Of a stretch of 64,000 nt of DNA, positions 7,751 through 60,554 are shown piece after piece (position 1 is the stretch's first letter; the number at the start of each line of letters is the position of its first letter). The position numbers and the translations under genes are program-made. The notes under the pieces were generated by a model. It saw only the letters and a program-made list of their open reading frames with translations. It ran no database searches and was not told where the DNA came from. Source of the stretch: an archaeon (GTDB taxonomy: Archaea; Nanobdellota; Nanobdellia; Pacearchaeales; GW2011-AR1); assembly GCA_030605415.1 (NCBI GenBank), contig JAUWIJ010000001.1, forward strand, positions 568-64,567. Direction: 5' to 3'.

Positions 7751-7780
7751 TGGAGTTGAAGATATTATCAAGATTGGGAA
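7676..7780. repeat. ~105-bp direct repeat (copy A) duplicated at 8624-8757, flanking the GNAT+ASCH module
   Basis: ga.aaaagatatagaatagttgcaaaatt.aatttggaaaaaggtttatatattgc.acgacgagatcttcttaat …atattatcaagattgggaa. 3 mismatches in the first 75 bp. Copy B has a 23-bp indel. Confidence 0.85.
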
Positions 7781-8569: not shown

Positions 8570-8698
8570 CCATATAATAATCATCAAAGAGTGTTTTTAG
8601 TATTTTGAATATATTACTGTCAGACAAAAGATATAGAATAGTTGCAAAATTAAATTTGGAAAAAGGTTTATATATTGCAACGACGAGATCTTCTTAAT

Positions 8699-9813: not shown

Positions 9814-12426
9814 ATGCCGTTTGATATAATTATTGGAAGAAACGAAAGCGACAAAAAAGCGTTCGGAAATAGAGGACTAGCTTTTATCGGGAAAAGTTTT
9901 GTTACAATGGGAAATTACACGTCGCTGTCGAACCCGATTTTCATGGACGTCGCTCGGTCGCATGTCATTCTAATAAGTGGAAAAAGAGGAAGCGGGAAAT
10001 GTCTTCACGAAGATAGCTTAATTAGTTTAGGAGACGGTTCTCAGGTTTCAATTAAAGATTTGGCTGAAAATTCTGAAAAGATTGTTTCAATGAATAATAA
10101 AATGAAAATGGAATTGGTGGATAAATCTAAGTTTTTTTCCAGAGAGGTTGATAAATTATTAAGTGTTAAACTAAGGAGTGGAAAAGAAATTAAATTAACT
10201 CCAGAGCATCCGCTTTTTACAGTGAAGGGGTGGATTCCTGTTGGTGAATTGGATGTTGGTAGTAGGATTGCGACTCCGAGGGTAATGCCGTGTTTTGGAG
10301 ATTTTCAAATGAAAGAGTGTGAGGTCAAGTTGCTTTCATACCTAATTGCGGAAGGGCATACTAAAAAAGTTGTTTTATTTTCTAATATGGATAAAGAAAT
10401 TGTTGAGGATTTTCGTGAAGCATTAAATAATTTTGATTCATCTCTAAGCTTAATTAAAGAACAAGAAGGTTGTTATAGAATTTCTGATCCTAATTGGAAG
10501 ACAAGTGTTTTGGAACATGATTTATCTCGGACTGATAAGGGGCAGTTTGTGAAAGGTACGAAAAATGTTTGTAGAAAAAGAAGTATTCGGGAATTGATTG
10601 AAAGGGAAAGTATTTTTGGAAAGTTGGCTGTCGAGAAATCCCTTTCTGATAATTTGATGAAACTAAGAAAGAAACAGATGATTTTGTTTTTAAATAGGTT
10701 GTTTAGTTGTGACGGGAGTATATATAAATCAAATAATTATTGGGAGATTTCTTATTCATCTTCTTCGGAAAAATTGATTTGTCAAGTTCAAAGCTTATTG
10801 TTGAGATTTGGTATTTTGTCTAAGCTGAGGGAGAAAAAAGTTAAATATAATGAGAAAATTTTTAATAGTTTTGAGTTGGTTTTGAATTCAGTTAATGTTG
10901 TGAGTTTTATTAAGCAAATTGGTTTTTTTGGACAGAAGGATGCTCGGATGGAAATTGCTCTTGAGGAAATTGATTTAGCCTCGAAGAATCCCAATGTTGA
11001 TATAATACCCAAGGAGATTTGGGATGGGTATCGTCCAAAGAATTGGGCAGAGATTGGTAGAAAATTGGGGTATAAACATCCTAAGGCAATGAGAGAAAGA
11101 ATTAGATATTGCCCTTCTCGAAATACTCTTATGAAGATTGCAGATGCCGATTCTCATGATTTATTTAAACGCTTTGCGAGTTCGGATATTTTTTGGGATG
11201 AGATTATTTCTGTTGATGTTTTAGAGGGAAATGCTACGGTTTATGATATTTGTGTTCCGCGTAATCATAATTTTGTTGCGAATGATATGATTGTTCATAA
11301 TAGCTACACAATTGGCACGATGGCTGAAGCGTTATCTGATTTGGGCGTCGAGGAGTCTGGGAATATAGCACCCTTGATTTTTGACACAATGGGAATTTTC
11401 TGGACGATGAAATATAAAAACGCAAAAGACGAAACCCTATTAGATGAATGGGAATTAGAACCAAAAAATATTCCAATGAGAGTTTTCGCCCCATTCGGTT
11501 ATTATCAAAAATATAAAGATAAGGGAGTTGATGTCGACGCTGAGTTTGCTATTAAAATTTCCGAGTTAGATTCGACAGATTGGGTCGCGCTTTTTGAGTT
11601 AAGGTTTACCGATGCGATTGCAGTTATAATTGAATCCGTAATCAGCGAGTTAAAAGAGTCAAAAGATAATTTTAGTTTTGAAGATATTTATAATTTAATT
11701 AGACGTGCGGAAAATGTTTCGCAGGAAGTCAAAAATTCGGCGATGGCATTATTCGATGCAGCGAAGAGCTGGAAGGTTTTTGACGAAGAAAAGGGAACAT
11801 CGGTCCGGGATTTGATTTCCGCAGGACGAACAACAGTGATTGACTTGTCGATGTATGCTTCGCTCGGAACTTTTAACGTCAGGGCTTTAATTATTAGTCT
11901 GGTTTCAAAGAAAATTTTTAATGAAAGGATGAGCGCAAGGAAAGACGAAGAAATTCAGGCAGTGCAACATGGTGCGGATTATGCGAGATATAAAATTAAA
12001 AGAGAGGTACCATTAGTCTGGATATTTATCGACGAAGCACACGAGTTTCTCCCCAGAGACGGAAAAACACCGGCGACAGATGCCCTGGTTCAAATATTAA
12101 GGGAGGGAAGACAACCCGGGATTTCAATAGTGATGGCGACGCAACAACCCGGAAAAATTCACACGGATGCGATGACCCAATCAGACATTATAATTTCACA
12201 TAGAGTCACAGCGAAGCTAGACGTCGACGCCCTAAATGACATTACGCAAAGCTATATGTATTCAAATATCTCGGAAAAAATTAACGGACTGCCTCGGCTG
12301 AAAGGTTCGGCTATTATTTTAGACGACAACTCGGAAAGAATTTATCCAATGAGAATCAGACCACGATGGACTTGGCACGGCGGCGAAGCACCGACAGCAA
12401 TCAAAAAAGTTGATGAAGAATTGTAG
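9814..12426 (+). CDS. HerA/FtsK-superfamily (COG0433-like) ATPase containing an intein
   Basis: Walker A GKRGSGK|C...HN|SYT is interrupted by the intein. Walker B VWIFIDEAHEF. ATQQPG motif. Confidence 0.8.
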   Translation: MPFDIIIGRNESDKKAFGNRGLAFIGKSFVTMGNYTSLSNPIFMDVARSHVILISGKRGSGKCLHEDSLISLGDGSQVSIKDLAENSEKIVSMNNKMKMELVDKSKFFSREVDKLLSVKLRSGKEIKLTPEHPLFTVKGWIPVGELDVGSRIATPRVMPCFGDFQMKECEVKLLSYLIAEGHTKKVVLFSNMDKEIVEDFREALNNFDSSLSLIKEQEGCYRISDPNWKTSVLEHDLSRTDKGQFVKGTKNVCRKRSIRELIERESIFGKLAVEKSLSDNLMKLRKKQMILFLNRLFSCDGSIYKSNNYWEISYSSSSEKLICQVQSLLLRFGILSKLREKKVKYNEKIFNSFELVLNSVNVVSFIKQIGFFGQKDARMEIALEEIDLASKNPNVDIIPKEIWDGYRPKNWAEIGRKLGYKHPKAMRERIRYCPSRNTLMKIADADSHDLFKRFASSDIFWDEIISVDVLEGNATVYDICVPRNHNFVANDMIVHNSYTIGTMAEALSDLGVEESGNIAPLIFDTMGIFWTMKYKNAKDETLLDEWELEPKNIPMRVFAPFGYYQKYKDKGVDVDAEFAIKISELDSTDWVALFELRFTDAIAVIIESVISELKESKDNFSFEDIYNLIRRAENVSQEVKNSAMALFDAAKSWKVFDEEKGTSVRDLISAGRTTVIDLSMYASLGTFNVRALIISLVSKKIFNERMSARKDEEIQAVQHGADYARYKIKREVPLVWIFIDEAHEFLPRDGKTPATDALVQILREGRQPGISIVMATQQPGKIHTDAMTQSDIIISHRVTAKLDVDALNDITQSYMYSNISEKINGLPRLKGSAIILDDNSERIYPMRIRPRWTWHGGEAPTAIKKVDEEL
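10000..11301 (+). mobile_element. Intein (434 aa) with LAGLIDADG homing endonuclease, inserted in the P-loop
   Basis: Begins with Cys (CLHEDSLISLGDGS, block A). Ends VHN followed by Ser. LAGLIDADG-like motifs LLSYLIAEGH and LNRLFSCDGSIY. Confidence 0.8.
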
Positions 12427-12439
12427 GAAACGTCTTTGA

Positions 12440-12520
12440 CGTTGCGGTTGGGAGTTAGGGGTTGGGAGTTGGGGGCGGGAAACTCCAAACTCCAAACTTC
12501 TAACTACCAACTGGAGAGGG
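12440..12520. repeat. Family-A G-rich repeat element (GGGAGTTGGG / CCAACT-type), intergenic
   Basis: gttgggagttaggggttgggagttggggg...aactccaaactccaaacttctaactaccaact. Related copies at 16845-16935, 19492-19572, 21258-21362, 31417-31555 and 32913-32965. Confidence 0.8.
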
Positions 12521-12562
12521 GGGAAATATTTATAAACAAGTCATTCTTAATATATTCAGAAA

Positions 12563-13234
12563 ATGGTGAAAAAAATTCAGATTAACATGTCGAACAAATC
12601 GTTTTATTCGTTGATTGTGTTTGGGGTTTTGATTTTGGCAGGCATTGGAGTTTACGCTTATAATTCTGGGGCTGACCCGTCGGTGATGGGGCATTCTATT
12701 GATGAGATTGAGGGATTGGGTTCTCTTATGGATAATTATTACACTAAAAGTGAAGTTTATACTCAAAGTGAAGTTTACACCAAAGAACAAATTGATGCTA
12801 TGATTTCTACAATAGAATCTGGCGGAACTGGATGTCCTGTAGGATATACACTTTATAAACAAAGCACTGAAACAGCGAAATGTTATAAGGATGGAAAGAT
12901 TATTACTATTCTATGGTATGCGTATGGTACAGTGATGAGTGGGCGTGACTGGCAGTGTGAAGGACGTATTAATAGTGGGAACCTTCAAACTCGCGCAACT
13001 TCCAACCCTGGAGATTATAATGAGGTTTCTAGTGGTTGGGTAGATGGAACAAGCGAAACATACCAAATGTATTATCCTCAATATAGAATTAGATGTGTTC
13101 CAAATTGGAAAGGAATGATTATGCAATATGAGAATTCAGTATATGGCACTCCAATGTGGCGCCCAACAGCGGAGTATCATCTAAGCCCAAAAGGGTATGA
13201 AGTTAGTTGGGGTAATGTTCTCCAAATTAATTAA
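12563..13234 (+). CDS. Secreted/TM-anchored protein with tail-fibre-like SEVYT repeats
   Basis: N-terminal TM/signal. 'KSEVYTQSEVYTKEQID' repeat. The first ~33 codons and the promoter are identical to the 19611 gene. Confidence 0.45.
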   Translation: MVKKIQINMSNKSFYSLIVFGVLILAGIGVYAYNSGADPSVMGHSIDEIEGLGSLMDNYYTKSEVYTQSEVYTKEQIDAMISTIESGGTGCPVGYTLYKQSTETAKCYKDGKIITILWYAYGTVMSGRDWQCEGRINSGNLQTRATSNPGDYNEVSSGWVDGTSETYQMYYPQYRIRCVPNWKGMIMQYENSVYGTPMWRPTAEYHLSPKGYEVSWGNVLQIN

Positions 13235-16588: not shown

Positions 16589-17503
16589 TCATCTAACCTT
16601 AAAACTCGCTTGCCAACGATACTTATAAGCCCCGATATCACCCGCCTTTCGGATTTTGATTCTGCCGATTTTATTTTTAGTGTCTGTTTTTATTTCGCTT
16701 AAAACTTCTTCCCTTGTCCCAAACCCGTGATAGAAAATTATTGTTCCTTTCTTTGAAAGTTTAAGCGCGGTTTTGAGAAAAGTATCTTTGAGGTTTGGTC
16801 GGGGCATCAAGATAATATCGAAGGTTTCGATATTATCAGGGATTAGGAATTTGGGATTTGGAATTTGTGGGAGCAGAGGACTACCAACTACAAACTCCCA
16901 ACTCCGAACTGGGGATGAGGATTTGGAATTAGGGACATGTCTAAGTTTTGTTGGTAATTTCTTCGCGTCGCCATCGACCAATGTTATATAATTTTGAAAT
17001 TTATTCAGAACAATATTTTTCTTCGCTGACTCATTCGCCTTTTTATTAAGTTCATTTGAAATTATGACCGCGTGTTTCCCCGCCTGTTTTAATTTTCTCG
17101 CAATAATAATTGGATAAGGAGCAACTCCGGCAAACATGACAAGGATTTTTGTGCCAGATTTTTTAGATAACTTAACAACCTCGTCGGCGATAATTTTTCT
17201 TTCATTTGACAACCGCGGAGAAAAATAAGATTCGTCGATATTAAATTTGAATACACACTGGTTTTCTCTGTATATTGTTTCCTTTGTTTTGATTCCCGCG
17301 AGGTGTTTTGTTTTCAAGATTCGAAGTTTTCCCGAGAAGCCTTCGGTTTTTTCGACGACAGTCATAACTGTTTTATTCTCTTTCAAAAATTTTCTTGCTT
17401 TTAATTTTTTAATTAACCATAAGGTTCGTCTTGGAAATTTTAGAATCGCGATATTTCCGAGGATGTCCTGAGGAATTTTTTTCATAAATAAATACAATTT
17501 CAT
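16589..17503 (-). CDS. trm5: tRNA (guanine37-N1)-methyltransferase Trm5 family, with in-frame repeat insertion
   Basis: FSPRLSNER and MFAGVAPY SAM-MTase motifs. Carries a ~30-aa insert (HVPNSKSSSPVRSWEFVVGSPLLPQIPNPKF) encoded by a family-A repeat at ~16845-16935. Confidence 0.7.
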   Translation of the reverse strand: MKLYLFMKKIPQDILGNIAILKFPRRTLWLIKKLKARKFLKENKTVMTVVEKTEGFSGKLRILKTKHLAGIKTKETIYRENQCVFKFNIDESYFSPRLSNERKIIADEVVKLSKKSGTKILVMFAGVAPYPIIIARKLKQAGKHAVIISNELNKKANESAKKNIVLNKFQNYITLVDGDAKKLPTKLRHVPNSKSSSPVRSWEFVVGSPLLPQIPNPKFLIPDNIETFDIILMPRPNLKDTFLKTALKLSKKGTIIFYHGFGTREEVLSEIKTDTKNKIGRIKIRKAGDIGAYKYRWQASFKVR

Positions 17504-18879: not shown

Positions 18880-19050
18880 TTCTGAGTTCTTTCCCAAGAC
18901 CGCTCATTCCTCGCTCTTAGATCTCAGACCGCTCATTTCATTCACTCTTAGAACCACCCCCGGGACGTGCCCCCTTCCCCCTCTAAGTTCTGAGAGCGAA
19001 GCGGTCTGAGTTCTGAGTTCTAGTTGGAGTTCTCAGTTCTGCAAGATTAG
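18880..19050. repeat. Family-B repeat element (GAGTTCTGAG tandem + 'gaccgctcatttcattcactcttaga' core)
   Basis: Shares the core with 35470-35790 (inverse orientation) and 55545-55730. Confidence 0.8.
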
Positions 19051-19084: not shown

Positions 19085-19492
19085 ATGAGTTATAGGTTTT
19101 TGGAACATATGGCCGATGTGAAGTTTCGGGCTGAGGGTCCAACAATTGAAAAAGCATTTATTTCGGCGGCCGATGCGTTAAATGAGACGATTCGGGGAGA
19201 TATTAAAATTTTAGAACAGCAGGAAAAAAGTTTTGAGATTGAGGGCAAAGATGCGGAAAGTTTGCTATACAATTTTTTAGAAGAATTTTTATTTTTATTG
19301 GACGCTGAAGATTTTTTGACTGCAAGAATAAAGTCGATTTCAATTAAGCAAAATAAGTTAAGTTGCATTATTGTCGGCGATAATGCAGAACACTACAAAT
19401 TCACAAACGACGTAAAGGCAGTGACCTATAACGATATGTTTGTCCGCGAAGAAAATGGGAAGTTTATTTGTCAGGTTGTCTTGGATGTATAG
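19085..19492 (+). CDS. Archease
   Basis: N-terminal FLEHMADVKFRAEGPTIEKAF matches the archease signature (F.yL.HTADv..ra.G.tleEaF). Confidence 0.8.
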   Translation: MSYRFLEHMADVKFRAEGPTIEKAFISAADALNETIRGDIKILEQQEKSFEIEGKDAESLLYNFLEEFLFLLDAEDFLTARIKSISIKQNKLSCIIVGDNAEHYKFTNDVKAVTYNDMFVREENGKFICQVVLDV

Positions 19493-19610
19493 GTTAGGTG
19501 TTTGGGGTTCGGAGCGGGGGGGACTACTAACTCCTAACTACCAACTTCTAACTACCAACTGGAGAGGGGGGAAATATTTATAAACAAGTCATTCTTAATA
19601 TATTCAGAAA

Positions 19611-20108
19611 ATGGTGAAAAAAATTCAGATTAACATGTCGAACAAATCGTTTTATTCTTTGATTGTGTTTGGGGTTTTGATTTTGGCAGGCATTGGAGTT
19701 TACGCTTATGGGACTTCTAACCCTGCTGTTTTTGGGCATAGTGCTGGAGAGATTGAAGGTTTAGGAGAATTATTAATTCCTTCTGGGGCTGTGATGGCGT
19801 TTAATTTAGCAAGTTGCCCGTCTGGCTGGAGTACATATGCTTCTGCAAAAGATAGAGTTATTGTTGGTTCAGGAAGTTCATATTCTCTTGGTAAAAAAGG
19901 CGGAGCAAAAACACATACATTGACAATTGCTGAGATGCCGAAGCATAGACATGCATATACAAATGCAGGAAATTTTGGAGGGGGAGGGAAACATTATCCC
20001 TCTGGATATAGTCCTCAGGAAATGACTTACACTGATTATGTAGGTGGCAACCAACCTCACAACAATATGCAACCATATATTGCACTTTTATATTGTCAGA
20101 AAAATTAA
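19611..20108 (+). CDS. Phage tail-collar domain protein with N-terminal TM/signal
   Basis: THTLTIAEMPKHRHAY...HNNMQPY motif of the tail-collar (microcystin-dependent protein-like) domain. N-terminus is identical to the 12563 gene. Confidence 0.6.
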   Translation: MVKKIQINMSNKSFYSLIVFGVLILAGIGVYAYGTSNPAVFGHSAGEIEGLGELLIPSGAVMAFNLASCPSGWSTYASAKDRVIVGSGSSYSLGKKGGAKTHTLTIAEMPKHRHAYTNAGNFGGGGKHYPSGYSPQEMTYTDYVGGNQPHNNMQPYIALLYCQKN

Positions 20109-20267: not shown

Positions 20268-21782
20268 ATGAAATTAAAAAAAATTAGCAATGTCGAATGG
20301 GAAATTCCTATCGAGGGCAAAATGAATGTTCCGGGAAGAATTTTTGCCAGCGAGGAAATGGTTAAAAATTTTGACGATAAGTGCTTAGAGCAAGTGAAAA
20401 ATGTTGCGAAATTGCCCGGGATTCTGAAAGCAAGTTATGCTATGCCAGATATGCATTTGGGCTACGGTTTTCCAATCGGCGGAGTCGCTGCGTTTGACAT
20501 TGACAAAGGTGTAATTAGTCCGGGTGGCGTCGGCTATGACATTAATTGTTCTGTGCGTTTATTGAAAACGAATTTGAAAGCGGAGGATTTAGTTGGTAAA
20601 GAAAAAGAGTTGGCACATTCGTTGTTTCGCACGGTGCCGTCGGGAATTGGTAGAAAAGGTAAAATTTTATTAGATGCTAAAGAACTAGATGAAGTTCTAA
20701 TCGGCGGGGCACAATGGGCTGTTAAAAAAGGTTATGGACAGAAAGAAGATTGTTTGCATATTGAAGAAGAGGGAAAAATGGAAGGAGCAAATCCGTCGGC
20801 AGTGTCGCAGAGAGCGAAAGGCAGAGGAATGTCTCAACTGGGTTCTCTCGGCGCAGGGAATCATTTTTTGGATGTATTAATTGTTGATGAGATTTTTGAT
20901 GAAAAAGTTGCAAAAGTTTTTGGTCTGGAAATTGGACAGATTGTGATTTTAATTCATTGCGGTTCGAGAGGGCTCGGACATCAGGTCGCGTCAGATTATA
21001 TTAAATTGATGGAAAATAAATATGGTTATCCGGATTTTGACAGAGAGTTAGTAAACGCGCCGATTAAGTCCGAACTCGGACAGAAATATCTGGGAGCGAT
21101 GGCGGCCGCGGCGAACTTTGCATTCGCAAACAAACAAATAATTACTCATTTCGTCCGCGAAAATATGAAACATTATTTTCCAAATTTTAAAGCAGACGTC
21201 GTCTACGATATCTGTCATAACATTGCGAAATTTGAGAAGCACGACGTAGGAACGAAGAACTCAAAACTCAGAGGGTTAGGTGTTAGGAGTTTGGGGTTAG
21301 GGGAGACTACCAACTACCAACTACCAACTATCAACTACCGACATCCGACATCCGACATCCGAAAACAAACGGTTCTCATCATGAGAAAGGGAGCGACCCG
21401 AAGTTTTGGTCCGGGCAGAGAAGAAATCCCAGAAGATTACAGAGAGGTTGGTCAGCCAGTTTTACTACCAGGCTCGATGGGAACACCAAGTTATGTTTTA
21501 TGCGGAACCAAAAAAGCAGAGGAAATTTCTTGGGGCTCGACGGCACACGGAGCAGGTCGGGTCAAAAGCAGAACTCAGGCGCATAGAGATATGAGTTTCA
21601 ACGACGCCAAAAAAGATATGGAAAAGCGGGGCGTGTTTGTTGAGTTCGGAGGACAAAAGGGTTTGGTAGAAGAATCACCATTTTCATACAAAGATGTCGA
21701 CGAGGTTGTCCGAATTTCTGACGAAGCAGGAATTGGAAAGAAAGTTGCGAAGCTGAAACCGGTTATTGTCATAATAGGATAA
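20268..21782 (+). CDS. rtcB: RNA-splicing ligase RtcB with in-frame repeat insertion
   Basis: GGVGYDINCSVR, HCGSRGLGHQ and HNIAKFEKHDV...RKGATR motifs. A ~40-aa insert (GTKNSKLRGLGVRSLGLGETTNYQLPTINYRHPTSDIRKQT) is encoded by a family-A repeat at 21258-21362. Confidence 0.9.
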   Translation: MKLKKISNVEWEIPIEGKMNVPGRIFASEEMVKNFDDKCLEQVKNVAKLPGILKASYAMPDMHLGYGFPIGGVAAFDIDKGVISPGGVGYDINCSVRLLKTNLKAEDLVGKEKELAHSLFRTVPSGIGRKGKILLDAKELDEVLIGGAQWAVKKGYGQKEDCLHIEEEGKMEGANPSAVSQRAKGRGMSQLGSLGAGNHFLDVLIVDEIFDEKVAKVFGLEIGQIVILIHCGSRGLGHQVASDYIKLMENKYGYPDFDRELVNAPIKSELGQKYLGAMAAAANFAFANKQIITHFVRENMKHYFPNFKADVVYDICHNIAKFEKHDVGTKNSKLRGLGVRSLGLGETTNYQLPTINYRHPTSDIRKQTVLIMRKGATRSFGPGREEIPEDYREVGQPVLLPGSMGTPSYVLCGTKKAEEISWGSTAHGAGRVKSRTQAHRDMSFNDAKKDMEKRGVFVEFGGQKGLVEESPFSYKDVDEVVRISDEAGIGKKVAKLKPVIVIIG

Positions 21783-31416: not shown

Positions 31417-31555
31417 GACTGGGAATTTGGGACACGAGCTAGGTATTTGGTATTTGGGATTTGGGATTTGTGGGAGCAGGGGACTACCAACTACAAACTC
31501 CCAACTCCGAACTGGGGATGGGGATTTGTGAGAAACAGGGAAGGGGATTGGAAGC
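31417..31555. repeat. Family-A repeat element, intergenic; ~75 nt near-identical to the copy inside trm5
   Basis: gatttgtgggagcaggggactaccaactacaaactcccaactccgaactggggatgggga matches 16858-16932 with 2 mismatches. Confidence 0.85.
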
Positions 31556-31570: not shown

Positions 31571-32947
31571 ATGGAGAATAACTTTACAAACTTTAATAAA
31601 CCGATTTTTCTTGTCTGGATTATGACCATGAAAGATATTTTAAAAAAAGAGATTGAATTAATTTCACTTTCTCGTGAGGAAATTTTAAAATTATCCAAAG
31701 TTGCTAAAGAATTTATTACCTCTCTTAAAGCGGAGGGGCTTAATGCTTACGTCGGTGGCAGTTTAGCAAAAGGGACTGTAATTAAAGGGGAGGGTTTGTT
31801 TCCGTCTATGGATACTTCCGGAGAACCTCAGGATGTAGATATTTTTGTTGTATTTAATTACAGCGAAGATATTAAAAAACTGGAAGGAATTTTAAAGAAG
31901 ATTAATTTACCTGGCATTTTAAAAAAAGTTCATGGCTCAAGAGATTATTTTCAAATTAATTGTGGCACACCCAAGGGTATACCTCCTGCCCAGATGGCAT
32001 CCACTGACGCGGACAAGGTCGGCAATGCTTTATTAGAAGTAATTCCCGTTGTAAAAAATAACGACCCCGAGCTGGCGGAAAACGTGACAGATGTTTCGCT
32101 TAGTCACGTTAAATATATTGGCGGGGAGATAAAGAAAAATCCGAAAATTGCCGACGATATTAAATTAGCGAAAGCGTTTTGTCGGGCAAATCGTTGCTAC
32201 GGCGCAGAGGGTTATGCCCGAGGTTTTAGTGGCTATTCGCTGGAAGTGTTAGTTATTTATTTTGGCGGATTTGTGAAATTTTTAAAAAGAATTCAAAAAA
32301 AGCGGGTGATTGACCCATTAAAATATTTTAGAAGTGAGCGGGAAATTTTAAGTGAGTTAAATGCGTCGAAACTAAACTGTCCCGTGGTTTTAATTGACCC
32401 GACTTACAAATATAGAAATATTTCAGCAGGATTAGGACTTGAGAGTTTTGAAAGATTTATTGATACCGCTAAGAAATTTTTAAAATCACCGTCGTTGAAG
32501 TTTTTTGAGAAGAAAGATATCGACATTGAAGAAATAAAAAAGTTTGCTAAAAGTAGAAAGGCAAAGTTTATCGAAATAGATTTGAAGACAGATAGACAAG
32601 ATGGAGATATTGCTGGGACGAAGATGAAAAAGTTTTTGGATTTTTTTGCTAAAGAATTGGTTCGAAAACAGCAAAAGGTTCTTAGAAAGGAATTTGATTA
32701 TTTGGGCGGGAAGAAAGCCAAAGGATATTTGGTTGTCGAGGAGAAAATGGAAATTGAGTTACGGGGACCTTCGGTTGGACTAGAAGAAGCGGTTAAAAAT
32801 TTCAAGAAAGCAAAAGGCAGAAAAATCTTTGAAAGAAAAAATTATTGGTGGTGCAAAGAAAAAAGCGGAGTTGCTGAGGTGTTTAAATTGGTTGGAAAAG
32901 TTGAGGGAGAGATGGGAGCGAGGATGGAATTAGGGATTGGGGATTAG
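31571..32947 (+). CDS. cca: CCA-adding tRNA nucleotidyltransferase (archaeal class I), with in-frame insert and repeat-extended C-terminus
   Basis: GGSLAKGT...DVDIFVV NTase motif. 18-aa insert PKGIPPAQMASTDADKVGNA identical to one in GatB. C-terminal 'GARMELGIGD' is encoded by a family-A repeat. Confidence 0.7.
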   Translation: MENNFTNFNKPIFLVWIMTMKDILKKEIELISLSREEILKLSKVAKEFITSLKAEGLNAYVGGSLAKGTVIKGEGLFPSMDTSGEPQDVDIFVVFNYSEDIKKLEGILKKINLPGILKKVHGSRDYFQINCGTPKGIPPAQMASTDADKVGNALLEVIPVVKNNDPELAENVTDVSLSHVKYIGGEIKKNPKIADDIKLAKAFCRANRCYGAEGYARGFSGYSLEVLVIYFGGFVKFLKRIQKKRVIDPLKYFRSEREILSELNASKLNCPVVLIDPTYKYRNISAGLGLESFERFIDTAKKFLKSPSLKFFEKKDIDIEEIKKFAKSRKAKFIEIDLKTDRQDGDIAGTKMKKFLDFFAKELVRKQQKVLRKEFDYLGGKKAKGYLVVEEKMEIELRGPSVGLEEAVKNFKKAKGRKIFERKNYWWCKEKSGVAEVFKLVGKVEGEMGARMELGIGD

Positions 32948-35469: not shown

Positions 35470-35790
35470 AAAAACAAGAAGTTTTTCCAGAGCTTAGAAC
35501 TCGGTGGACAGGAAGTCCAGAGCTTAGAACTCGATGGACAGAAAGTCCAGAACTCAGAACTGAGAACTGAGAACTCAGAGGGGGCAACCGACGGGGAAGC
35601 GGGGGGTTGCTCTCAGAGTGAATGAAATGAACGGTCTAAGTTCTGAGTTCTCAGTTCTAGGGAGTGAAACGACCTCTAAGAGTGAATGAAATGAACGGTC
35701 TGAGTTCTGAGTTCTAGGGAGTGGAACGACCTCTAAGAGCGAATAAAATGAGCGGTCTGAAATCTCAGATCTGAGTTCTATTTTAAAACA
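35470..35790. repeat. Family-B composite repeat element (largest copy, internally duplicated)
   Basis: Contains two copies of 'tctaagagtgaatgaaatgaacggtctgagttctgagttc' and 'ccagagcttagaactcg(g/a)tggacag(g/a)aagtcc' modules. Confidence 0.8.
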
Positions 35791-43562: not shown

Positions 43563-43665
43563 GCTTTCGTAGCTCAGCAGGTAGAGCGCACGGCTGTTAC
43601 ATGGGTTTGCTTTGGTAGATTTTGCAGAGACCGTGATGTCGGAGGTTCGAGTCCTCCCGAAAGCG
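43563..43665 (+). tRNA. tRNA-Asn(GUU) with ~30-nt intron in the anticodon loop
   Basis: Hand fold. Acceptor GCTTTCG/CGAAAGC. D arm GCTC-AGCAGGTA-GAGC. Anticodon stem CACGG/CCGTG with loop CTGTTA + intron (43600-43629) + A. T arm GGAGG-TTCGAGT-CCTCC. Discriminator G. No encoded CCA. Confidence 0.75.
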
Positions 43666-44215
43666 TAGCTGAGTCGAACCGACGACGTCGGAGGCGAAAA
43701 CCTTTGCTCGAATTTTGCACAAACAGAAATATATCGCAAAATTTCAGAGTGAAGTTTGAGTAGAGTCCTCCCGAAAGCGTAGCTGAGTAGGACATCGAAC
43801 CGTAGACGTCGGAGGCGAGCAATTTACTCGAATTTTTCTCAACAAGAAAATAAAATCGACAAAATTTCAGTGTGCCCCGCCCAGTTTCAAATATATTTGG
43901 TAGGGTATAGAGTGAAGTTTGAGTAGAGTCCTCCCGAAAGCGTAGCTGAGTAGGACATCGAACCGTAGATTGTCGGTGTGAGTTTCGAGCTGTTTGACTA
44001 AATCCAAATACACAAATTGCTCGGAACGAAAGAAAATCTTTGCTCCTCGCAGAGGTTCCTGTGACCCTTGTGGTTACGAATTTTGTCTAAAAAATAAAAA
44101 TAAAATCGACAAAATTTCAGTATGCCCCGCCCAGTTTCAAATATATTTGGTAGGGTATAGAGTGAAGTTTGAGCAGAGTCCTCCCCGAAGTGTAGTTAAG
44201 TCAAACCGACGACGT
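43666..44215. repeat. Array of three degenerate copies of the tRNA-Asn 3' end with ~240-nt duplicated spacer
   Basis: gagtcctcccgaaagcgtagctgagt recurs at ~43757, ~43927 and ~44175 (last copy degenerate). Spacer 43838-43960 duplicates 44090-44200 (aaaataaaatcgacaaaatttcagt.tgccccgcccagtttcaaatatatttggtagggtatagagtgaagtttgag). Confidence 0.7.
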
Positions 44216-44271
44216 CTAACACCCAAACCAATTTCCAAATAATTTATAAACTTCTTTTTCTATTTTATTCT

Positions 44272-49548: not shown

Positions 49549-50973
49549 TCACTCAAAATCCTTCGCTAGTTTAAAAATTAATTCCTCTTGAAAATGTGGT
49601 GCCACAATTTGGAGTCCGACATCTTTGTTATCGAGTTTCCCTACTGGAATTGAGATTGCCGGGAGTCCTGCGATTGAAGCTGGCGTTGTGAAGACATCGT
49701 AAGCATACATATCTTTAACAGAGATTATCTCGCCAATTTTATGTGGAGTTCTCGGAACAGTTGGAAGAATTATAATATCGACCTCTTGGAAAATTTTTTC
49801 AAATTGTTGCTTGATAAAATTTCTTGCTTTTAGCGCCTCTCTATAATACTTCCCCTCGTGCTCGGCTTTCGTAATTTCGGAACCACCAATAATTCTTCTG
49901 ATGACTTCCGGACCCACAACTTCTTCAATTTTTTTTCCAAATCTTCGACCATCAAATTTTCGCGTTGCTGAGAAAAATTCGGTGTAAACAATTATATAAT
50001 AAGTTTGAATTGTAATATCTAACGGCAAATTTATTTTTTTAATTTTCCAATTATTTTGTTTTCCAATTTCTTTTGTTTTAGTTTCGATTAATTCTGCAAT
50101 TTCTTTCGGGCAAAAATCCTGAACATTCACCAATCCGATTACTCCCTTGTGCGGGTCTGAGGTCTGAGGTCTGAGTCGGCGTGCCCCAACCCATTTGAGT
50201 CTGCCCCAACCTGATTCTCTTTCATATTTGTGAGGGTATTCCCTTTTATCTGTGAGGGTATCTGAGGTCTGAGTCGTCTGGTCAAAGTTGTCTTGTCCTT
50301 TAATTATATTGAAAATTAATCTTGCGTCTTCCGGAGTTTGTGTTAACGGTCCGATGCAATCGAAAGACATTGTGTTATCTATTAGCCCGTATCGCGACAC
50401 CGCTCCATAAGTTGGTTTTAGTCCGACGATTCCGCAGTGCGATGCCGGATTTCGAATTGAACCACCAGTATCTGAACCTAACGAAAAATCGCAAAGTTCT
50501 GCAGCAACCGCCGCCGCTGAACCTGAGCTTGTCCCACCCGGAACTAATTCTGGATTTCTAGGATTTTTTGTTGGACCAAATGCCGACGTCTCTCCCGACG
50601 ACCCACAAGCGAACTCGTCCATGTTAACCATTCCTAAAATTATCGCATCCTCGGCTAAGAGTTTGTTTATTACCGTCGCATTATAAGGAGAAACATATCC
50701 TTCCAAAACTTTCGAGCCGCAATTTGTCTCAAGCTCTCTAACTGAAATATTTGATTTTACGGCGAAACATAAACCTGCTAGTTTTCCCGCCGTTCTCTTT
50801 TTTATTCGCTTATCTATTTCTTTTGCCTGCTCAATTGCGTTTTCATTCAAAGATAAAAAAATATTCAAGTCTTTTGTTTTTGGTGTTGCAATTTTTTTAG
50901 AAAAATTCATTAGGTTTTCAACTGCGGTTAGTTTTCCTGATTTGATTTGTTTGAGTTTATGTTTAAGTGTCAT
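49549..50973 (-). CDS. gatA: Glu/Asp-tRNA amidotransferase subunit A (amidase family) with in-frame repeat insertion
   Basis: Amidase signature GGTSSGSAAAVAA. A ~46-aa in-frame insert (…DTLTDKREYPHKYERESGWGRLKWVGARRLRPQTSDPHKG) is encoded by the family-C repeat at 50150-50290. Confidence 0.8.
   Translation of the reverse strand: MTLKHKLKQIKSGKLTAVENLMNFSKKIATPKTKDLNIFLSLNENAIEQAKEIDKRIKKRTAGKLAGLCFAVKSNISVRELETNCGSKVLEGYVSPYNATVINKLLAEDAIILGMVNMDEFACGSSGETSAFGPTKNPRNPELVPGGTSSGSAAAVAAELCDFSLGSDTGGSIRNPASHCGIVGLKPTYGAVSRYGLIDNTMSFDCIGPLTQTPEDARLIFNIIKGQDNFDQTTQTSDTLTDKREYPHKYERESGWGRLKWVGARRLRPQTSDPHKGVIGLVNVQDFCPKEIAELIETKTKEIGKQNNWKIKKINLPLDITIQTYYIIVYTEFFSATRKFDGRRFGKKIEEVVGPEVIRRIIGGSEITKAEHEGKYYREALKARNFIKQQFEKIFQEVDIIILPTVPRTPHKIGEIISVKDMYAYDVFTTPASIAGLPAISIPVGKLDNKDVGLQIVAPHFQEELIFKLAKDFE
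50150..50290. repeat. Family-C repeat (GGTCTGAG tandem + 'ccccaacc' + 'tgtgagggtat' duplications) inside gatA
   Basis: gggtctgaggtctgaggtctgag...ctgtgagggtatctgaggtctgag. In-frame within the amidase ORF. Confidence 0.75.
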
Positions 50974-59090: not shown

Positions 59091-60554
59091 ATGAAAACCA
59101 AAACATTTCCCATAAAAATTGGCTTAGAAATCCACGGATATTTAGACACGAAAGAAAAGTTATTTTGTATGTGCTTAGTTTCGGGGTGTCGGTGTTCGGG
59201 GGTCGGAGGGTCGGAAGATATACCTAACTCGAGAATCTGCCCAATTTGCACAGGGACGCCGGGGTCAAAACCAATGGCACCTAATATTGAAGCAGTTAAA
59301 AAAATGATTCAGATTGCATTGGTCTTTGGGTCGAAAATTAGTTTTGAAACGACCTGGCAGAGGAAACATTATAACTGGGCAGATTTGCCGAAGGGATATC
59401 AGACGACAATTTCCGGAGCGCACGCGACGCCAAATGCTGTCGGGGGAAAATTTAAAGGGATTAATCTGACTGAGTTGCATCTTGAGGAAGACCCGGCGCA
59501 GTGGAATCCGGATTCGGGGAAAATTAATTATAATCGTTCGGGGTTACCCCTGATTGAGATTGTGACCGAGCCGGAGTTTTCGGATTCGGAGCAGGTTGTT
59601 GAGTGGCTAAAGAGTTTAATTTTATCTTTGAGTTATATTAAGGCAGTTCGAAAGAACGCGGGAATCAAAGTTGATGTAAATATTTCGACTTACGGCGAGC
59701 GGGTTGAGATGAAGAATTTGAATTCGTTGGAGAAGATTCGGAAAGCGATTGATTATGAAATTTTGAGACAAGTTGAAGCTAACGAGAAAGGAGAAGTTCA
59801 GAAAATGGAGACACTTGCGTTTGATGAGAAACTTGGCAAGACAATTAAGATGAGGTCGAAGGAAGGGGCGGCGGATTATAGGTTTATTCCCGACCCTGAT
59901 TTGCTTACGATTAAAATAGATAAAAAAATGGTCAATAAAATTAAATCGGAATTACCTGAGATGCCTGAAGTTAAATTGGCTAAACTACTGAAGACACATA
60001 AAGTTGACAAAAAGAATGCTGAGGTATTGACAAGAAATTTAGAACTGGTTGAGTTTTTTGAAAAATTAGCTATGATTACTGCACCCAAGGGTGTACCTCC
60101 TGCCCAGATGGCATCCGCTAAAGCGGACAAGGTCGGCAATGTGAATAAAAATTTGTCGTGGGTGACGATTGAATTATTGAGGGTTCTAAATTATAATAAA
60201 AAAACTTTGGAGGATGAGGATGTTGAGATTTTACCTGAGCATTTGGCGGAGTTGATTAAGGCGGTTGAATCGGGGAAGATTACGGTTTTGAAAGGGAAAC
60301 AGATTATGAATGATTTTGTGCCGAAGTCGTTTTCGTTGAAGGAGCATAAGGGAGAGATTGGGAATATTGATGAGGCTGCGATTGAGAATTTGTGTAGGCA
60401 GGTGATTGATGAGAATTTAAAAGTTGTTGATGAGTATAAATCTGGGAAGGGTGCGTCGTTGAATTATTTGATTGGGCAGGTTATGAGGTTGTCGGAGAGA
60501 CGGGCAGATTTTAAAGTTGCTGGAGAGATTTTGAAGAGGTTGATTGGGAATTGA
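59091..60554 (+). CDS. gatB: Asp/Glu-tRNA amidotransferase subunit B with in-frame 18-aa insert
   Basis: GLEIHGYLDTKEKLFCMC...ICPICTGTPG...DLPKGYQ GatB/E motifs. Insert PKGVPPAQMASAKADKVGNV at 60082-60144. Confidence 0.8.
   Translation: MKTKTFPIKIGLEIHGYLDTKEKLFCMCLVSGCRCSGVGGSEDIPNSRICPICTGTPGSKPMAPNIEAVKKMIQIALVFGSKISFETTWQRKHYNWADLPKGYQTTISGAHATPNAVGGKFKGINLTELHLEEDPAQWNPDSGKINYNRSGLPLIEIVTEPEFSDSEQVVEWLKSLILSLSYIKAVRKNAGIKVDVNISTYGERVEMKNLNSLEKIRKAIDYEILRQVEANEKGEVQKMETLAFDEKLGKTIKMRSKEGAADYRFIPDPDLLTIKIDKKMVNKIKSELPEMPEVKLAKLLKTHKVDKKNAEVLTRNLELVEFFEKLAMITAPKGVPPAQMASAKADKVGNVNKNLSWVTIELLRVLNYNKKTLEDEDVEILPEHLAELIKAVESGKITVLKGKQIMNDFVPKSFSLKEHKGEIGNIDEAAIENLCRQVIDENLKVVDEYKSGKGASLNYLIGQVMRLSERRADFKVAGEILKRLIGN

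What the first reader, a model, noticed from the sequence alone, without database searches (positions are those of the whole stretch)
31973..32033. Identical 18-codon insert (PKG[IV]PPAQMAS..ADKVGN) present in both the CCA-adding enzyme and GatB
The sequences cacccaagggtatacctcctgcccagatggcatccactgacgcggacaaggtcggcaatgc (cca, 31973-32033) and cacccaagggtgtacctcctgcccagatggcatccgctaaagcggacaaggtcggcaatgt (gatB, 60082-60144) are about 90% identical. They are in-frame in two unrelated housekeeping proteins. The 5' end is a near-palindrome (CACCCAAGGGTG). This is a distinct, higher-complexity mobile mini-element, which is not low-complexity and not intein-like (no Cys/Ser…HN ends).
Basis: seen in the sequence. 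Interest (0 to 1): 0.65.

Follow-up and report, generated by a model that had tools for sequence, protein, structure and literature searches.

The report
In-frame mobile mini-element in DPANN archaea
A 57-base, GC-rich piece of selfish DNA has copied itself, always in the same direction and reading frame, into dozens of unrelated housekeeping genes of tiny DPANN archaea, where it reads through as a 19-20 amino-acid surface loop, much like the Rickettsia palindromic elements but shorter and stricter.

Summary
Window 31968-32024 (archaeal CCA-adding enzyme) and 60082-60138 (GatB) hold two copies of a 57-nt, 65% GC core in a 35% GC genome. They are 53/57 identical and in the same frame (…PKG[IV]PPAQMAS..ADKVG…).

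Scans of public genomes and metagenomes, plus loci fetched through protein hits, gave 35 distinct insertion sites. All lie in Pace-/Woesearchaeota-like DPANN archaea. Hosts include uS5, eL31, eS24, TatD, helicases, Dus, methyltransferases, MutS-like, HAD and a giant surface protein. Every copy is sense-oriented and in one frame, although five of the six frames are open.

Orthologues that are about 81-90% identical lack the element. Two clean filled/empty comparisons show an insertion of exactly 57 nt splitting a GAC codon (G|AC), with no target duplication and no terminal inverted repeats.

Three small sense-strand helices show compensatory changes (7 of 17 pairs against 1.9 in shuffles). The compensated variants recur in unrelated hosts, which marks propagating subfamilies. 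Old copies decay towards AT at roughly the rate of their flanks.

Best reading: a non-autonomous, structured selfish mini-element that is tolerated as a flexible loop. It is an archaeal analogue of the RPEs. How it moves is unknown. It is a new variant of a known kind.

The parts
31968..32024 (+). 57-nt core of the element, copy 1, in the CCA-adding enzyme gene. With flank base A31967 and A32025-T32026 it is read as TPKGIPPAQMASTDADKVGN.
   Evidence: Orthologues L048 and L050 lack exactly 57 nt here, while L007 and L049 carry it.
31968..31981 (+). Block B1 (CACCCAAGGGTATA), the 5' hairpin. Together with base 31967 it makes helix 1.
   Evidence: Pairs 2-13 and 3-12 show compensatory changes in other copies.
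31982..32002 (+). Block B2 (CCTCCTGCCCAGATGGCATCC, PPAQMAS). It is the subfamily-specific middle and the 5' strand of helix 2.
32003..32011 (+). Variable tip (ACTGACGCG). It holds part of the stem and the loop of helix 3.
   Evidence: One search shows most between-copy variation here. One search shows compensatory pairs 36-45, 37-44 and 38-43.
32012..32024 (+). Block B3 (GACAAGGTCGGCA), the 3' end and the 3' strand of helix 2.
60082..60138 (+). 57-nt core of the element, copy 2, in gatB. With G60081 and A60139-T60140 it is read as APKGVPPAQMASAKADKVGN.
   Evidence: Five GatB orthologues (L043-L047) are empty at this site. AlphaFold2 pLDDT is 46-59 over residues 331-350, between helices 317-330 and 351-368.
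31631..32947 (+). Host gene 1: archaeal class I CCA-adding enzyme. The insert sits in the hairpin just before the LLEVIPVV strand, which aligns to AfCCA residue 108 onward.
59091..60554 (+). Host gene 2: GatB. The insert sits in the linker between the helical domain and the YqeY-like tail domain.

Best explanation
The two stretches are copies of a family of short, GC-rich, non-autonomous selfish DNA elements. The family has repeatedly inserted into protein-coding genes of Pacearchaeota/Woesearchaeota-like DPANN archaea.

Anatomy (shown). The core is 57 nt: CACCCAAGGGTGTACCTCCTGCCCAGATGGCATCCGCTGACGCGGACAAGGTCGGCA. Longer forms of 72, 87 and 99 nt carry extra in-frame sequence between the conserved blocks. 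In the resolved cases the core lies between the first and second base of a GAN codon, or less often an AAN codon. There is no target-site duplication and there are no terminal inverted repeats. Because the length is a multiple of three, the host frame is kept.

Expression (inferred). The element is translated as (A/T)PKGVPPAQMASxxxDKVG(K/N). This is a hydrophilic Pro/Gly/Ala-rich segment without Cys or aromatic residues. It sits in loops, interdomain linkers and terminal tails, where it is tolerated.

Propagation (inferred). The strand that is the sense strand in every host folds into three small helices. Copies appear to spread only from structurally intact masters, so the structure is probably what the mobilising machinery recognises, as single-stranded DNA or as RNA. 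A hairpin-recognising single-strand (HUH/IS200-IS605-like or REP/RAYT-like) mechanism is my leading guess, at about 0.25. After insertion the copies decay towards AT like neutral sequence.

Frame and orientation (inferred). The single frame probably reflects purifying selection against the stop-containing frame and the basic/aromatic sense frame. The strict sense orientation needs either a strand-specific mechanism or selection at the RNA level. No benefit to the host is required.
For: Copies and hosts. There are 35 distinct sites, drawn from one genome scan, one metagenome scan, an nhmmer search of the held loci and loci fetched through protein hits. Hosts are unrelated families (Pfam). Three unrelated sites carry the identical consensus 60-mer.

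Filled against empty. At the GatB Zn-loop site, orthologues of about 88-90% protein identity differ by exactly 57 nt. The same is true at the cca site. The window gatB site is +54 nt against five empties, that is 57 nt less a separate 3-nt indel. In both clean cases native G|AC becomes G[core]AC. Across the 35 sites the 5' flank base is G in 26 and A in 8, the 3' flank base is A in 33, and removing the core rebuilds 25 GAN and 7 AAN codons.

Orientation and frame. All 35 copies are sense and in one frame. Five of the six frames of the consensus are open. The chance of a single orientation under random orientation is about 6e-11.

Structure. On 30 distinct copies, 7 of 17 pairs carry compensatory changes, against 1.9±1.1 in shuffles (0/500) and 0-2 in slid controls. 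The compensated variants are shared by copies in unrelated hosts: 38-43 A-U in L005 and L030, and 36-45 U-A in L047/L053 and L052.

Decay. The orthologous copies in L044 and L047 differ at about 9 of 60 positions, in the same range as their flanks by eye on the alignment, and most of L047's changes from the consensus are GC→AT transitions.

Tolerance. The insert is a gap against solved GatB 3h0l_B. It has low pLDDT between two helices. In cca it precedes the strand aligned to AfCCA residue 108.

Precedent. In-frame selfish repeats are known in Rickettsia, Wolbachia and M. jannaschii (PMC10969869, PMC2229807, PMC2996958).
Against: No mobilising enzyme was identified. None of the 40 largest window ORFs matches a transposase, HUH or reverse-transcriptase family. 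No copy was found on viral contigs, plasmids or phages.

The strict sense orientation is not explained by tolerance alone. The antisense frame LPTLSASADAIWAGGTPLG looks benign, yet it is never seen.

No intergenic copy was found among 35. That has P of about 0.025 at 10% non-coding DNA, which is only weakly surprising, but it is unlike the RPEs.

Many base pairs are also broken in single copies, for example 27-54 in 7 of 30. AT-biased double transitions on G-C pairs, or palindrome-templated mutation, could produce some compensation without selection.

Translation of the insert is inferred from frame conservation only. No transcript or peptide data were available.
Confidence: 0.8

Rival explanations
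1. Domesticated functional module. The inserted segment, as peptide or as structured mRNA, has a shared host-level function such as a docking, cleavage or modification motif, or a regulatory RNA site. It is kept by host selection. The mobile origin is only the delivery route.
For: Frame and orientation are invariant at 35 of 35 sites. A sense-strand structure with compensatory changes is kept even in diverged copies such as L047 and L049, where no pair is broken. The uS5 orthologous copies differ only at two synonymous positions, while their flanks are 77-78% identical.
Against: Close orthologues of the same essential proteins do without it. Substitutions among copies are as frequent at first as at third codon positions, about 27, 11 and 32 at positions 1, 2 and 3 by my tally. 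The cca orthologous copies differ by four non-synonymous and one synonymous change. Diverged peptides exist (PPARLAS, PPAWLAS, PRGVPSARLAS). The extra conservation seen is biased by having selected copies with an exact 21-mer. The hosts share no common pathway.
Confidence: 0.1
2. RNA-level intervening sequence. The element is removed from the mRNA, for example by the archaeal bulge-helix-bulge splicing endonuclease followed by RtcB ligation, so the proteins are native. The sense-only orientation arises because removal needs the sense RNA structure.
For: The orientation is sense-only and the G·U-containing structure is valid only on the sense strand. The host encodes RtcB (20268-21782) and has a tRNA gene with a roughly 32-nt extra segment (Rfam against ARAGORN), so a splicing system is probably present. 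The inserts lie very close to catalytic elements of cca.
Against: All lengths are multiples of three (57, 72, 87, 99) and all copies are open in one frame. An excised intron would not need either property. The predicted fold has no bulge-helix-bulge: it has a 2-nt bulge, a 3-bp helix and a 4×4 internal loop, and the 5' and 3' ends do not pair. The z-scores are weak, -1.3 for RNA. There is no Rfam match. Diverged copies keep the ORF.
Confidence: 0.04
3. Copying without a dedicated transposase. The segment spreads by ectopic gene conversion or microhomology-mediated template switching from existing copies during repair or replication.
For: There is no TIR, no TSD and no partner enzyme. Short direct repeats occur inside the element (CAAGGGT and CAAGGT). 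The same permissive loops collect several different insert families. Tandem diverged copies occur in a HAD hydrolase, P0124.
Against: The boundaries are sharp and identical at 28 sites, each exactly 57 nt. Template switching would be expected to give ragged ends that carry donor flanks. The junction R|A is constant. Structure-preserving subfamilies suggest that a folded substrate is recognised.
Confidence: 0.15
4. Not a mobile element: either a convergent native motif, or an assembly or contamination artefact.
For: None beyond the a priori possibility. Aquifex GatB happens to have EPKGI near the site.
Against: Nucleotide-level identity, including synonymous sites, is shared by unrelated genes. 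The copies come from many independent studies and assemblers. The presence/absence differences are clean 57-nt steps. The chance expectation is 0.00. The single Verrucomicrobiota hit (L012) has no flanking similarity and is the one chance match.
Confidence: 0.01

Closest known systems
Rickettsia palindromic elements (RPE-1 to RPE-10; Ogata et al. 2000, 2002) and the related protein-coding palindromic repeats of Wolbachia
   Same: They are interspersed selfish repeats of a reduced-genome, host-dependent microbe. They insert in frame into unrelated, often essential genes and are read through as an extra peptide in non-structured surface segments. No transposase is known. Different families proliferate in different lineages (PMC10969869, PMC2229807, PMC1779305).
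   Different: RPEs are 100-150 bp, have about 12-bp terminal inverted repeats and fold end-to-end into one long stem-loop. They are abundant in intergenic DNA and also occur in RNA genes. Here the unit is 57 nt and has only local hairpins, with no TIR. All 35 sites are coding and sense-oriented. The host is an archaeon, and no sequence similarity is expected or seen.
[quoted passage not shown]
   Same: This is the archaeal precedent for repeat DNA fused in frame into protein genes. It is cited in PMC2229807 and PMC2996958.
   Different: The paper itself is not held in the library, so the details could not be compared. The title calls those elements palindromic, which this element is not. The lineage is different (Methanococcales against DPANN).
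[quoted passage not shown]
   Same: They are small, non-autonomous and multi-copy. Families share their ends and differ inside. Here the '(G/S)VPS…SSGK' sister family shares GGTGTACCCTC at the 5' end and TCGGGCAAG at the 3' end.
   Different: MITEs are defined by TIRs and TSDs and by a cognate IS transposase. None of these is present here.
IS200/IS605-derived PATEs and REP/RAYT elements (HUH single-strand transposition)
   Same: They have no TIR and no TSD. They carry hairpins that are read on one strand only, they insert in a strand-specific way, and they can excise seamlessly. REPs are of similar size.
   Different: Those elements insert 3' of a defined 4-5-nt target and are extragenic. Here only an R|A junction is conserved and all copies are intragenic. 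No TnpA or RAYT was found in the window, and whole genomes were not searched. This is a mechanistic lead, not a membership claim.
Inteins and archaeal bulge-helix-bulge introns
   Same: They are in-frame (inteins) or sense-only (introns) parasites of essential genes. The same window carries a real intein with a LAGLIDADG domain (9814-12426).
   Different: This element has no splicing domain (19 aa, with no Cys/Ser…His-Asn ends) and no BHB motif. It is therefore most likely not removed at all.

Membership tests
RPE-type protein-coding selfish repeats | Multi-copy interspersed repeat inserted in frame into unrelated ORFs without disrupting them | tested here: met
   35 sites in more than 20 host families, all with an open frame.
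RPE-type protein-coding selfish repeats | Palindromic architecture: terminal inverted repeats and a long end-to-end stem-loop, 100-150 bp | tested here: not met
   The core is 57 nt. The fold gives three local helices and the ends do not pair. No inverted termini were seen on inspection.
RPE-type protein-coding selfish repeats | Copies also in intergenic DNA and RNA genes | tested here: not met
   0 of 35 sites are intergenic or in an RNA gene. The sample is limited to loci that contain an exact 21-mer or were reached through protein hits.
RPE-type protein-coding selfish repeats | Insert lies in surface or unstructured segments of the host protein | tested here: met
   The insert is a gap against PDB 3h0l_B. 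pLDDT is 46-59 between two helices. In cca it sits in a hairpin. It lies in the N- or C-terminal tails of uS5, eL31 and eS24.
MITE | Terminal inverted repeats | tested here: not met
   The 5' end CACCCAAGGGTG and the reverse complement of the 3' end, TGCCGACCTTGTC, do not match (sequence inspection).
MITE | Target-site duplication | tested here: not met
   Two clean filled/empty pairs show G|AC becoming G[57 nt]AC with nothing duplicated.
MITE | Cognate autonomous IS with the same ends | tested here: inconclusive
   No B1…B3 pair lies more than 99 nt apart in 357 kb of loci. There is no transposase among the 40 largest window ORFs. Whole genomes were not available.
IS200/IS605 PATE or REP | Strand-specific subterminal hairpins | tested here: met
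   Helices 1-3 carry compensatory changes, and the G·U pairs are valid only on the sense strand.
IS200/IS605 PATE or REP | Insertion 3' of a fixed tetra- or pentanucleotide target | tested here: not met
   The only constant features are a purine at -1 (34 of 35) and A at +1 (33 of 35).
IS200/IS605 PATE or REP | Y1 HUH transposase (TnpA or RAYT) in the genome | not tested
   Only 64 kb of the genome was scanned, and none was found.
Archaeal BHB intron | Bulge(3)-helix(4)-bulge(3) at the two boundaries | tested here: not met
   The MFE and centroid structures lack it. The flanks are unrelated between copies, so the motif would have to lie inside the element.
Archaeal BHB intron | Removal from the mature RNA | not testable with these tools
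   No transcript data. Lengths that are always multiples of three and frames that are always open argue against it.
Intein | Splicing domain with N-terminal Cys/Ser and C-terminal His-Asn followed by Cys/Ser/Thr | tested here: not met
   The 19-20 aa peptide APKGV…DKVGK has none of these. No Pfam intein hit lies over the insert, whereas the window's true intein is detected.
Diversity-generating retroelement target (VR) | Adenine-specific TR/VR differences in a C-terminal variable region, with a reverse transcriptase nearby | tested here: not met
   The differences are not restricted to adenines of one copy. The hosts are housekeeping enzymes. No reverse transcriptase is in the window.

The most novel reading that the evidence does not exclude
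The element is a new kind of archaeal mobile element that lives only inside coding sequence. Its strict sense orientation, its fixed codon phase (it splits GAN codons) and its conserved sense-strand fold would then reflect a transcription- or RNA-coupled mechanism rather than selection alone. One version is insertion into the single-stranded non-template strand of transcribed genes by a hairpin-reading enzyme. Another is insertion of a structured 57-nt RNA into mRNA or cDNA, followed by recombination. The independent occupancy of the very same G|AC site in distant cca lineages (window/L007 against L049, with empties in between) would then be true site-specific homing, or seamless excision.
Probability: 0.15. 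Interest if true: 0.85.

Novelty: new variant of a known kind. Interest (0 to 1): 0.6.

Why it matters
In-frame selfish DNA has so far been described mainly in Rickettsiales, with one report in a methanogen. This family shows the same phenomenon in DPANN archaea, another group of reduced, host-dependent cells, and in a more extreme form. The unit is 57 nt, has no inverted repeats or duplications, and was found only in genes, only on the sense strand and only in one frame.

There are three practical consequences. First, the element inflates and perturbs alignments of marker proteins used for DPANN phylogeny, including uS5, eL31, eS24, GatB and the CCA enzyme, so it should be masked. Second, it offers natural presence/absence markers for strain and lineage tracing. 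Third, it is a natural experiment on which loops of essential enzymes tolerate 19 extra residues.

Mechanistically, the sharp junction and the structure-preserving subfamilies make the mobility question directly testable. The same genome holds several other in-frame mini-insert families. In-frame insertion may therefore be a general mode of protein-sequence gain in these archaea.

Tried and rejected
1. A box C/D or K-turn reading of CAGATGG…CTGA was rejected. The CTGA lies in the most variable part of the element (GCTAAA, GCTGGT and GATGAA variants), and no C-stem can form.

2. Rfam gave no family for the element. The window's only hit is one tRNA.

3. A peptide search of the 5.8-billion protein database with the doubled peptide returned only P0001. 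The word index evidently misses short queries, since the window's own GatB (P0002) is in that database. A profile search of the 50% representatives gave 14 hits, 12 of them real. This was useful for finding diverged copies but is not a census.

4. 'The element is more conserved than its host gene' has been downgraded. The pairs compared had both been selected for an exact 21-mer. The unselected orthologous pair L044/L047 diverges about as much as its flanks.

5. Anti-Shine-Dalgarno mimicry (ACCTCCT) and an internal start at the ATG were considered. The spacing is inconsistent across length classes, so this was not pursued.

6. A viral, plasmid or phage carrier was sought with three viral scans and two BLAST searches. 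All were empty.

7. An autonomous long version was sought. No B1 and B3 blocks lie further apart than 99 nt in the held loci.

8. A target-site motif beyond R|A was sought. Gly codons precede the element in about a third of sites and GAT or GTT often follow, by eye, but there is no fixed word.

9. My first attempt at the extended alignment used wrong coordinates. It was redone with extracted sequences.
Full report
**1. The observation**

The two stretches exist as described. The repeat finder lists them as a two-copy family, 31968-32027 and 60082-60141, 60 nt, 93% identical. Their shared 21-mer occurs twice in the window, against 0.00 expected in shuffles.

Both copies lie in the same frame of long ORFs. 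The ORFs are an archaeal class I CCA-adding enzyme and GatB. The core is 65% GC in a window of 35.2% GC.

The window is typical DPANN housekeeping DNA. It encodes GatA, GatD, GatE, AspRS, FtsZ, a proteasome subunit, FttA, RtcB, Trm5 and an intein-bearing protein. The closest named GatB relatives are Candidatus Pacearchaeota.

**2. It is a dispersed family**

One scan of 185,579 species genomes with the 21-mer gave 14 loci. Thirteen are Woesearchaeota, Pacearchaeota, Nanoarchaeota or unclassified archaeal MAGs. The fourteenth is a Verrucomicrobiota contig with no similarity outside the 21-mer, which makes it the one chance hit.

One metagenome scan added 28 contigs. An nhmmer profile found two more diverged copies in the held loci. 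Protein-level hits led to six further diverged copies.

After collapsing identical flanks there are 35 distinct insertion sites. By Pfam the hosts are:
- ribosomal proteins uS5, eL31 and eS24;
- an MMR_HSR1 GTPase;
- two methyltransferases;
- TatD, at three different positions;
- a CCG-domain protein with two copies;
- a MutS-like ATPase;
- DEAD-box and UvrD helicases;
- dihydrouridine synthase;
- a class V aminotransferase;
- a pyridine-nucleotide disulphide oxidoreductase;
- HAD hydrolases;
- a Bro-N protein;
- a surface protein longer than 2,600 aa;
- GatB, at two different positions;
- the CCA enzyme.

No copy was found on viral contigs, plasmids or phages. There is no Rfam family.

**3. 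It is an insertion, and its edges can be read**

Within one 90%-identity GatB cluster some members carry the element in the zinc-binding loop and others do not. At the DNA level the filled genes (L044, L047) exceed the empty ones (L045, L046) by exactly 57 nt.

At the cca site the window, L007 and L049 are filled, while the close orthologues L048 (P0141) and L050 (P0142) are empty. The difference is again exactly 57 nt.

At the window's own gatB site five orthologues are empty and the difference is 54 nt. That equals 57 nt less an unrelated 3-nt indel in a variable linker.

In both clean cases the only reading that needs no extra mutation at the junction is that a native GAC codon was split after its first base. 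G|AC becomes G-[CACCC…GGCA]-AC, which gives GCA (Ala) at the start and AAC (Asn) at the end. Nothing is duplicated and the termini are not inverted repeats.

This rule generalises:
- the base before the core is G in 26 and A in 8 of 35 sites;
- the base after it is A in 33 of 35;
- removing the core rebuilds a Glu or Asp codon 25 times and a Lys or Asn codon 7 times.

It also explains why the first residue is Ala or Thr and the last is Lys or Asn. Twenty-eight sites carry the 57-nt form. Others carry 72, 87 or 99 nt, with extra in-frame sequence between the conserved blocks. One 98-nt copy, at the C-terminus of a Bro-like gene, is frameshifted.

**4. Orientation and frame**

All 35 copies are co-oriented with their host gene and read in the same frame. 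The consensus is open in five of six frames.
- The used frame gives a hydrophilic, Cys-free and aromatic-free peptide.
- The second sense frame is strongly basic and aromatic.
- The third sense frame has a stop.
- Of the three antisense frames, one (LPTLSASADAIWAGGTPLG) looks harmless.

Selection can plausibly explain the choice of frame among the sense frames. The complete absence of antisense copies has P of about 6e-11 under random orientation, so it calls for a strand-specific mechanism or for selection at the RNA level. The absence of intergenic copies is only weakly significant (P about 0.025 at 10% non-coding DNA).

**5. A conserved fold**

The sense strand is predicted to form three helices:
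- a 5' hairpin (positions 1-5 with 10-14);
- a 3' domain closed by UGCC/GGCA (21-24 with 55-58);
- an apical hairpin (34-38 with 43-47).

Thermodynamic z-scores are unimpressive, between -1.0 and -2.3. The comparative signal is better. On 24 copies, 4 pairs show changes on both sides, against 0.7 in shuffles. After adding six diverged copies, 7 of 17 pairs do, against 1.9±1.1 (0/500), with 0-2 in the slid controls.

Two diverged copies, L047 and L049, have 9-10 substitutions and not one broken pair. Several pairs are G·U, which is valid only on the sense strand. The compensated variants recur in unrelated host genes. They therefore mark subfamilies that themselves propagated. This is what is expected if the fold is needed for mobility.

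There are caveats. Individual copies also carry broken pairs; 27-54 is broken in 7 of 30. AT-biased double transitions, or palindrome-templated mutation, can mimic compensation.

**6. What happens after insertion**

Young copies are near-identical across genomes. Three unrelated sites carry the exact consensus.

Older orthologous copies diverge about as much as their flanks, and mostly by GC→AT changes (L044 against L047). More decayed peptides exist, such as PRGVPSARLASAGADEEGN.

My earlier impression that the element is more conserved than the host gene is at least partly an artefact of selecting copies with an exact 21-mer. Substitutions are as common at first as at third codon positions, so the peptide is not under strong constraint.

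The insert is a gap against solved GatB. It has low model confidence between two helices. In cca it precedes the strand that aligns with A. fulgidus CCA residue 108. In ribosomal proteins it sits in terminal tails.

**7. Interpretation**

The best-supported account is a non-autonomous, structured, selfish mini-element that is tolerated as a flexible loop (confidence 0.8).

What is shown:
- multi-copy dispersal;
- clean 57-nt presence/absence;
- the R|A junction;
- a single orientation and frame;
- covarying helices;
- decay of old copies.

What is inferred:
- translation of the insert;
- selection as the filter on frame;
- the fold as the substrate for mobility;
- a single-strand, hairpin-reading enzyme as the mobiliser (about 0.25).

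The rivals are a domesticated functional module (0.1), RNA-level removal (0.04), transposase-free copying by conversion or template switching (0.15), and artefact or convergence (0.01). They are set out with their tests in the structured fields.

**8. Comparison with what is known**

The concept is established. In-frame selfish repeats are described in Rickettsia (RPEs), Wolbachia and M. jannaschii (PMC10969869, PMC2229807, PMC2996958, PMC1779305).

This family works like an RPE but fails the structural definition. It is 57 nt rather than 100-150 bp. It has no terminal inverted repeat or end-to-end palindrome. No intergenic or RNA-gene copies were seen. It also fails the MITE definition, having no TIR, no TSD and no cognate IS.

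It shares with IS200/IS605-type and REP elements the lack of TIR and TSD and the one-strand hairpins. It does not share their fixed target word.

Five full-text searches aimed at this question found no description of such elements in DPANN archaea. The library is incomplete, so prior description cannot be excluded. I rate it a new variant of a known kind, with interest 0.6.

Noticed in passing
window 12436-12497, 16838-16925, 19483-19553, 21276-21336, 31441-31528: This is a second repeat family: low-complexity hairpin-like elements with a G/T-rich arm followed by an A/C-rich arm (for example GGGATTTGGGATTTGTGGGAGCAGGGGACTACCAACTACAAACTCCCAACTCC). Three copies are intergenic. Two are in frame inside genes: Trm5-like ORF 16589-17503(-), read as NSKSSSPVRSWEFVVGSPLLPQIPNPKFLIP, and RtcB 20268-21782(+), read as LGVRSLGLGETTNYQLPTINY. 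In RtcB the insert splits the Pfam match into two stretches.
   Followed up: partly
window 31790-31831 (cca) and the L007 orthologue: The CCA enzyme carries a second insert of about 14 aa, EGLFPSMDTSGEPQ, directly before the catalytic DVDIF motif. It is shared with L007, P0141 and relatives, and absent from P0147-P0150. Other orthologues have different inserts at this spot.
   Followed up: partly
window 59175-59222 (gatB): GatB carries an insert LVSGCRCSGVGGSEDI, rich in GGTCGG, in the zinc-binding loop. This is exactly where P0004, P0006, P0136 and P0042 carry the PPAQMAS element. The loop is a hot spot for several insert families.
   Followed up: partly
L010 7090-7185(-), L047 501-566, L002 536-616; proteins P0039, P0064, P0193: A sister family '(G/S)VPS…(D)SSGK' (for example RNSVPSELGTSPEVPDSSGK) shares the 5' GGTGTACCCTC and the 3' TCGGGCAAG with the PPAQMAS element. 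The 99-nt class of the element also starts APKGVPSQI…. This suggests a superfamily defined by its ends.
   Followed up: partly
GatB orthologues P0045, P0069, P0070 (alignment A2, columns about 420-465): Another insert family, (E)GKI.T.MNTDEH… / GKILATDYTDSH, occupies the same GatB linker site as the window copy in other lineages.
   Followed up: no
window 9814-12426 (+): An 870-aa ORF contains a full intein with a LAGLIDADG homing-endonuclease domain (Pfam Intein_splicing residues 70-496, LAGLIDADG_3 residues 289-370). The host extein was not identified.
   Followed up: no
window 43563-43665 (+) and 43632-44219: Rfam calls a tRNA spanning 103 nt, covering model positions 1-71, so about 32 nt are extra and intron-like. 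ARAGORN finds no tRNA in the window. Downstream lie repeats that reuse the tRNA 3' part (families D5 and D6).
   Followed up: no
window 35486-35772, 18938-19010, 55600-55672, 50140-50217: Further GC-rich repeats of the GAGAACTGAGAACTCAGAGGGGG / CTCTCAGAGTGAATGAAATGAACGG type occur, partly in tandem with periods of 57-64 nt.
   Followed up: no
window 7676-7751 / 8623-8698 and 12481-12661 / 19529-19709: There are two longer near-identical direct repeats: 76 nt at 96% and 181 nt at 98%. Each overlaps ORF ends or starts. Their nature was not examined.
   Followed up: no
L051 (protein P0124, HAD hydrolase): Two diverged copies of the element lie head to tail (APKGVLPARLASAGADKLV-APKGVPPARLASAGADKGGK). 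This is the only tandem arrangement seen.
   Followed up: partly
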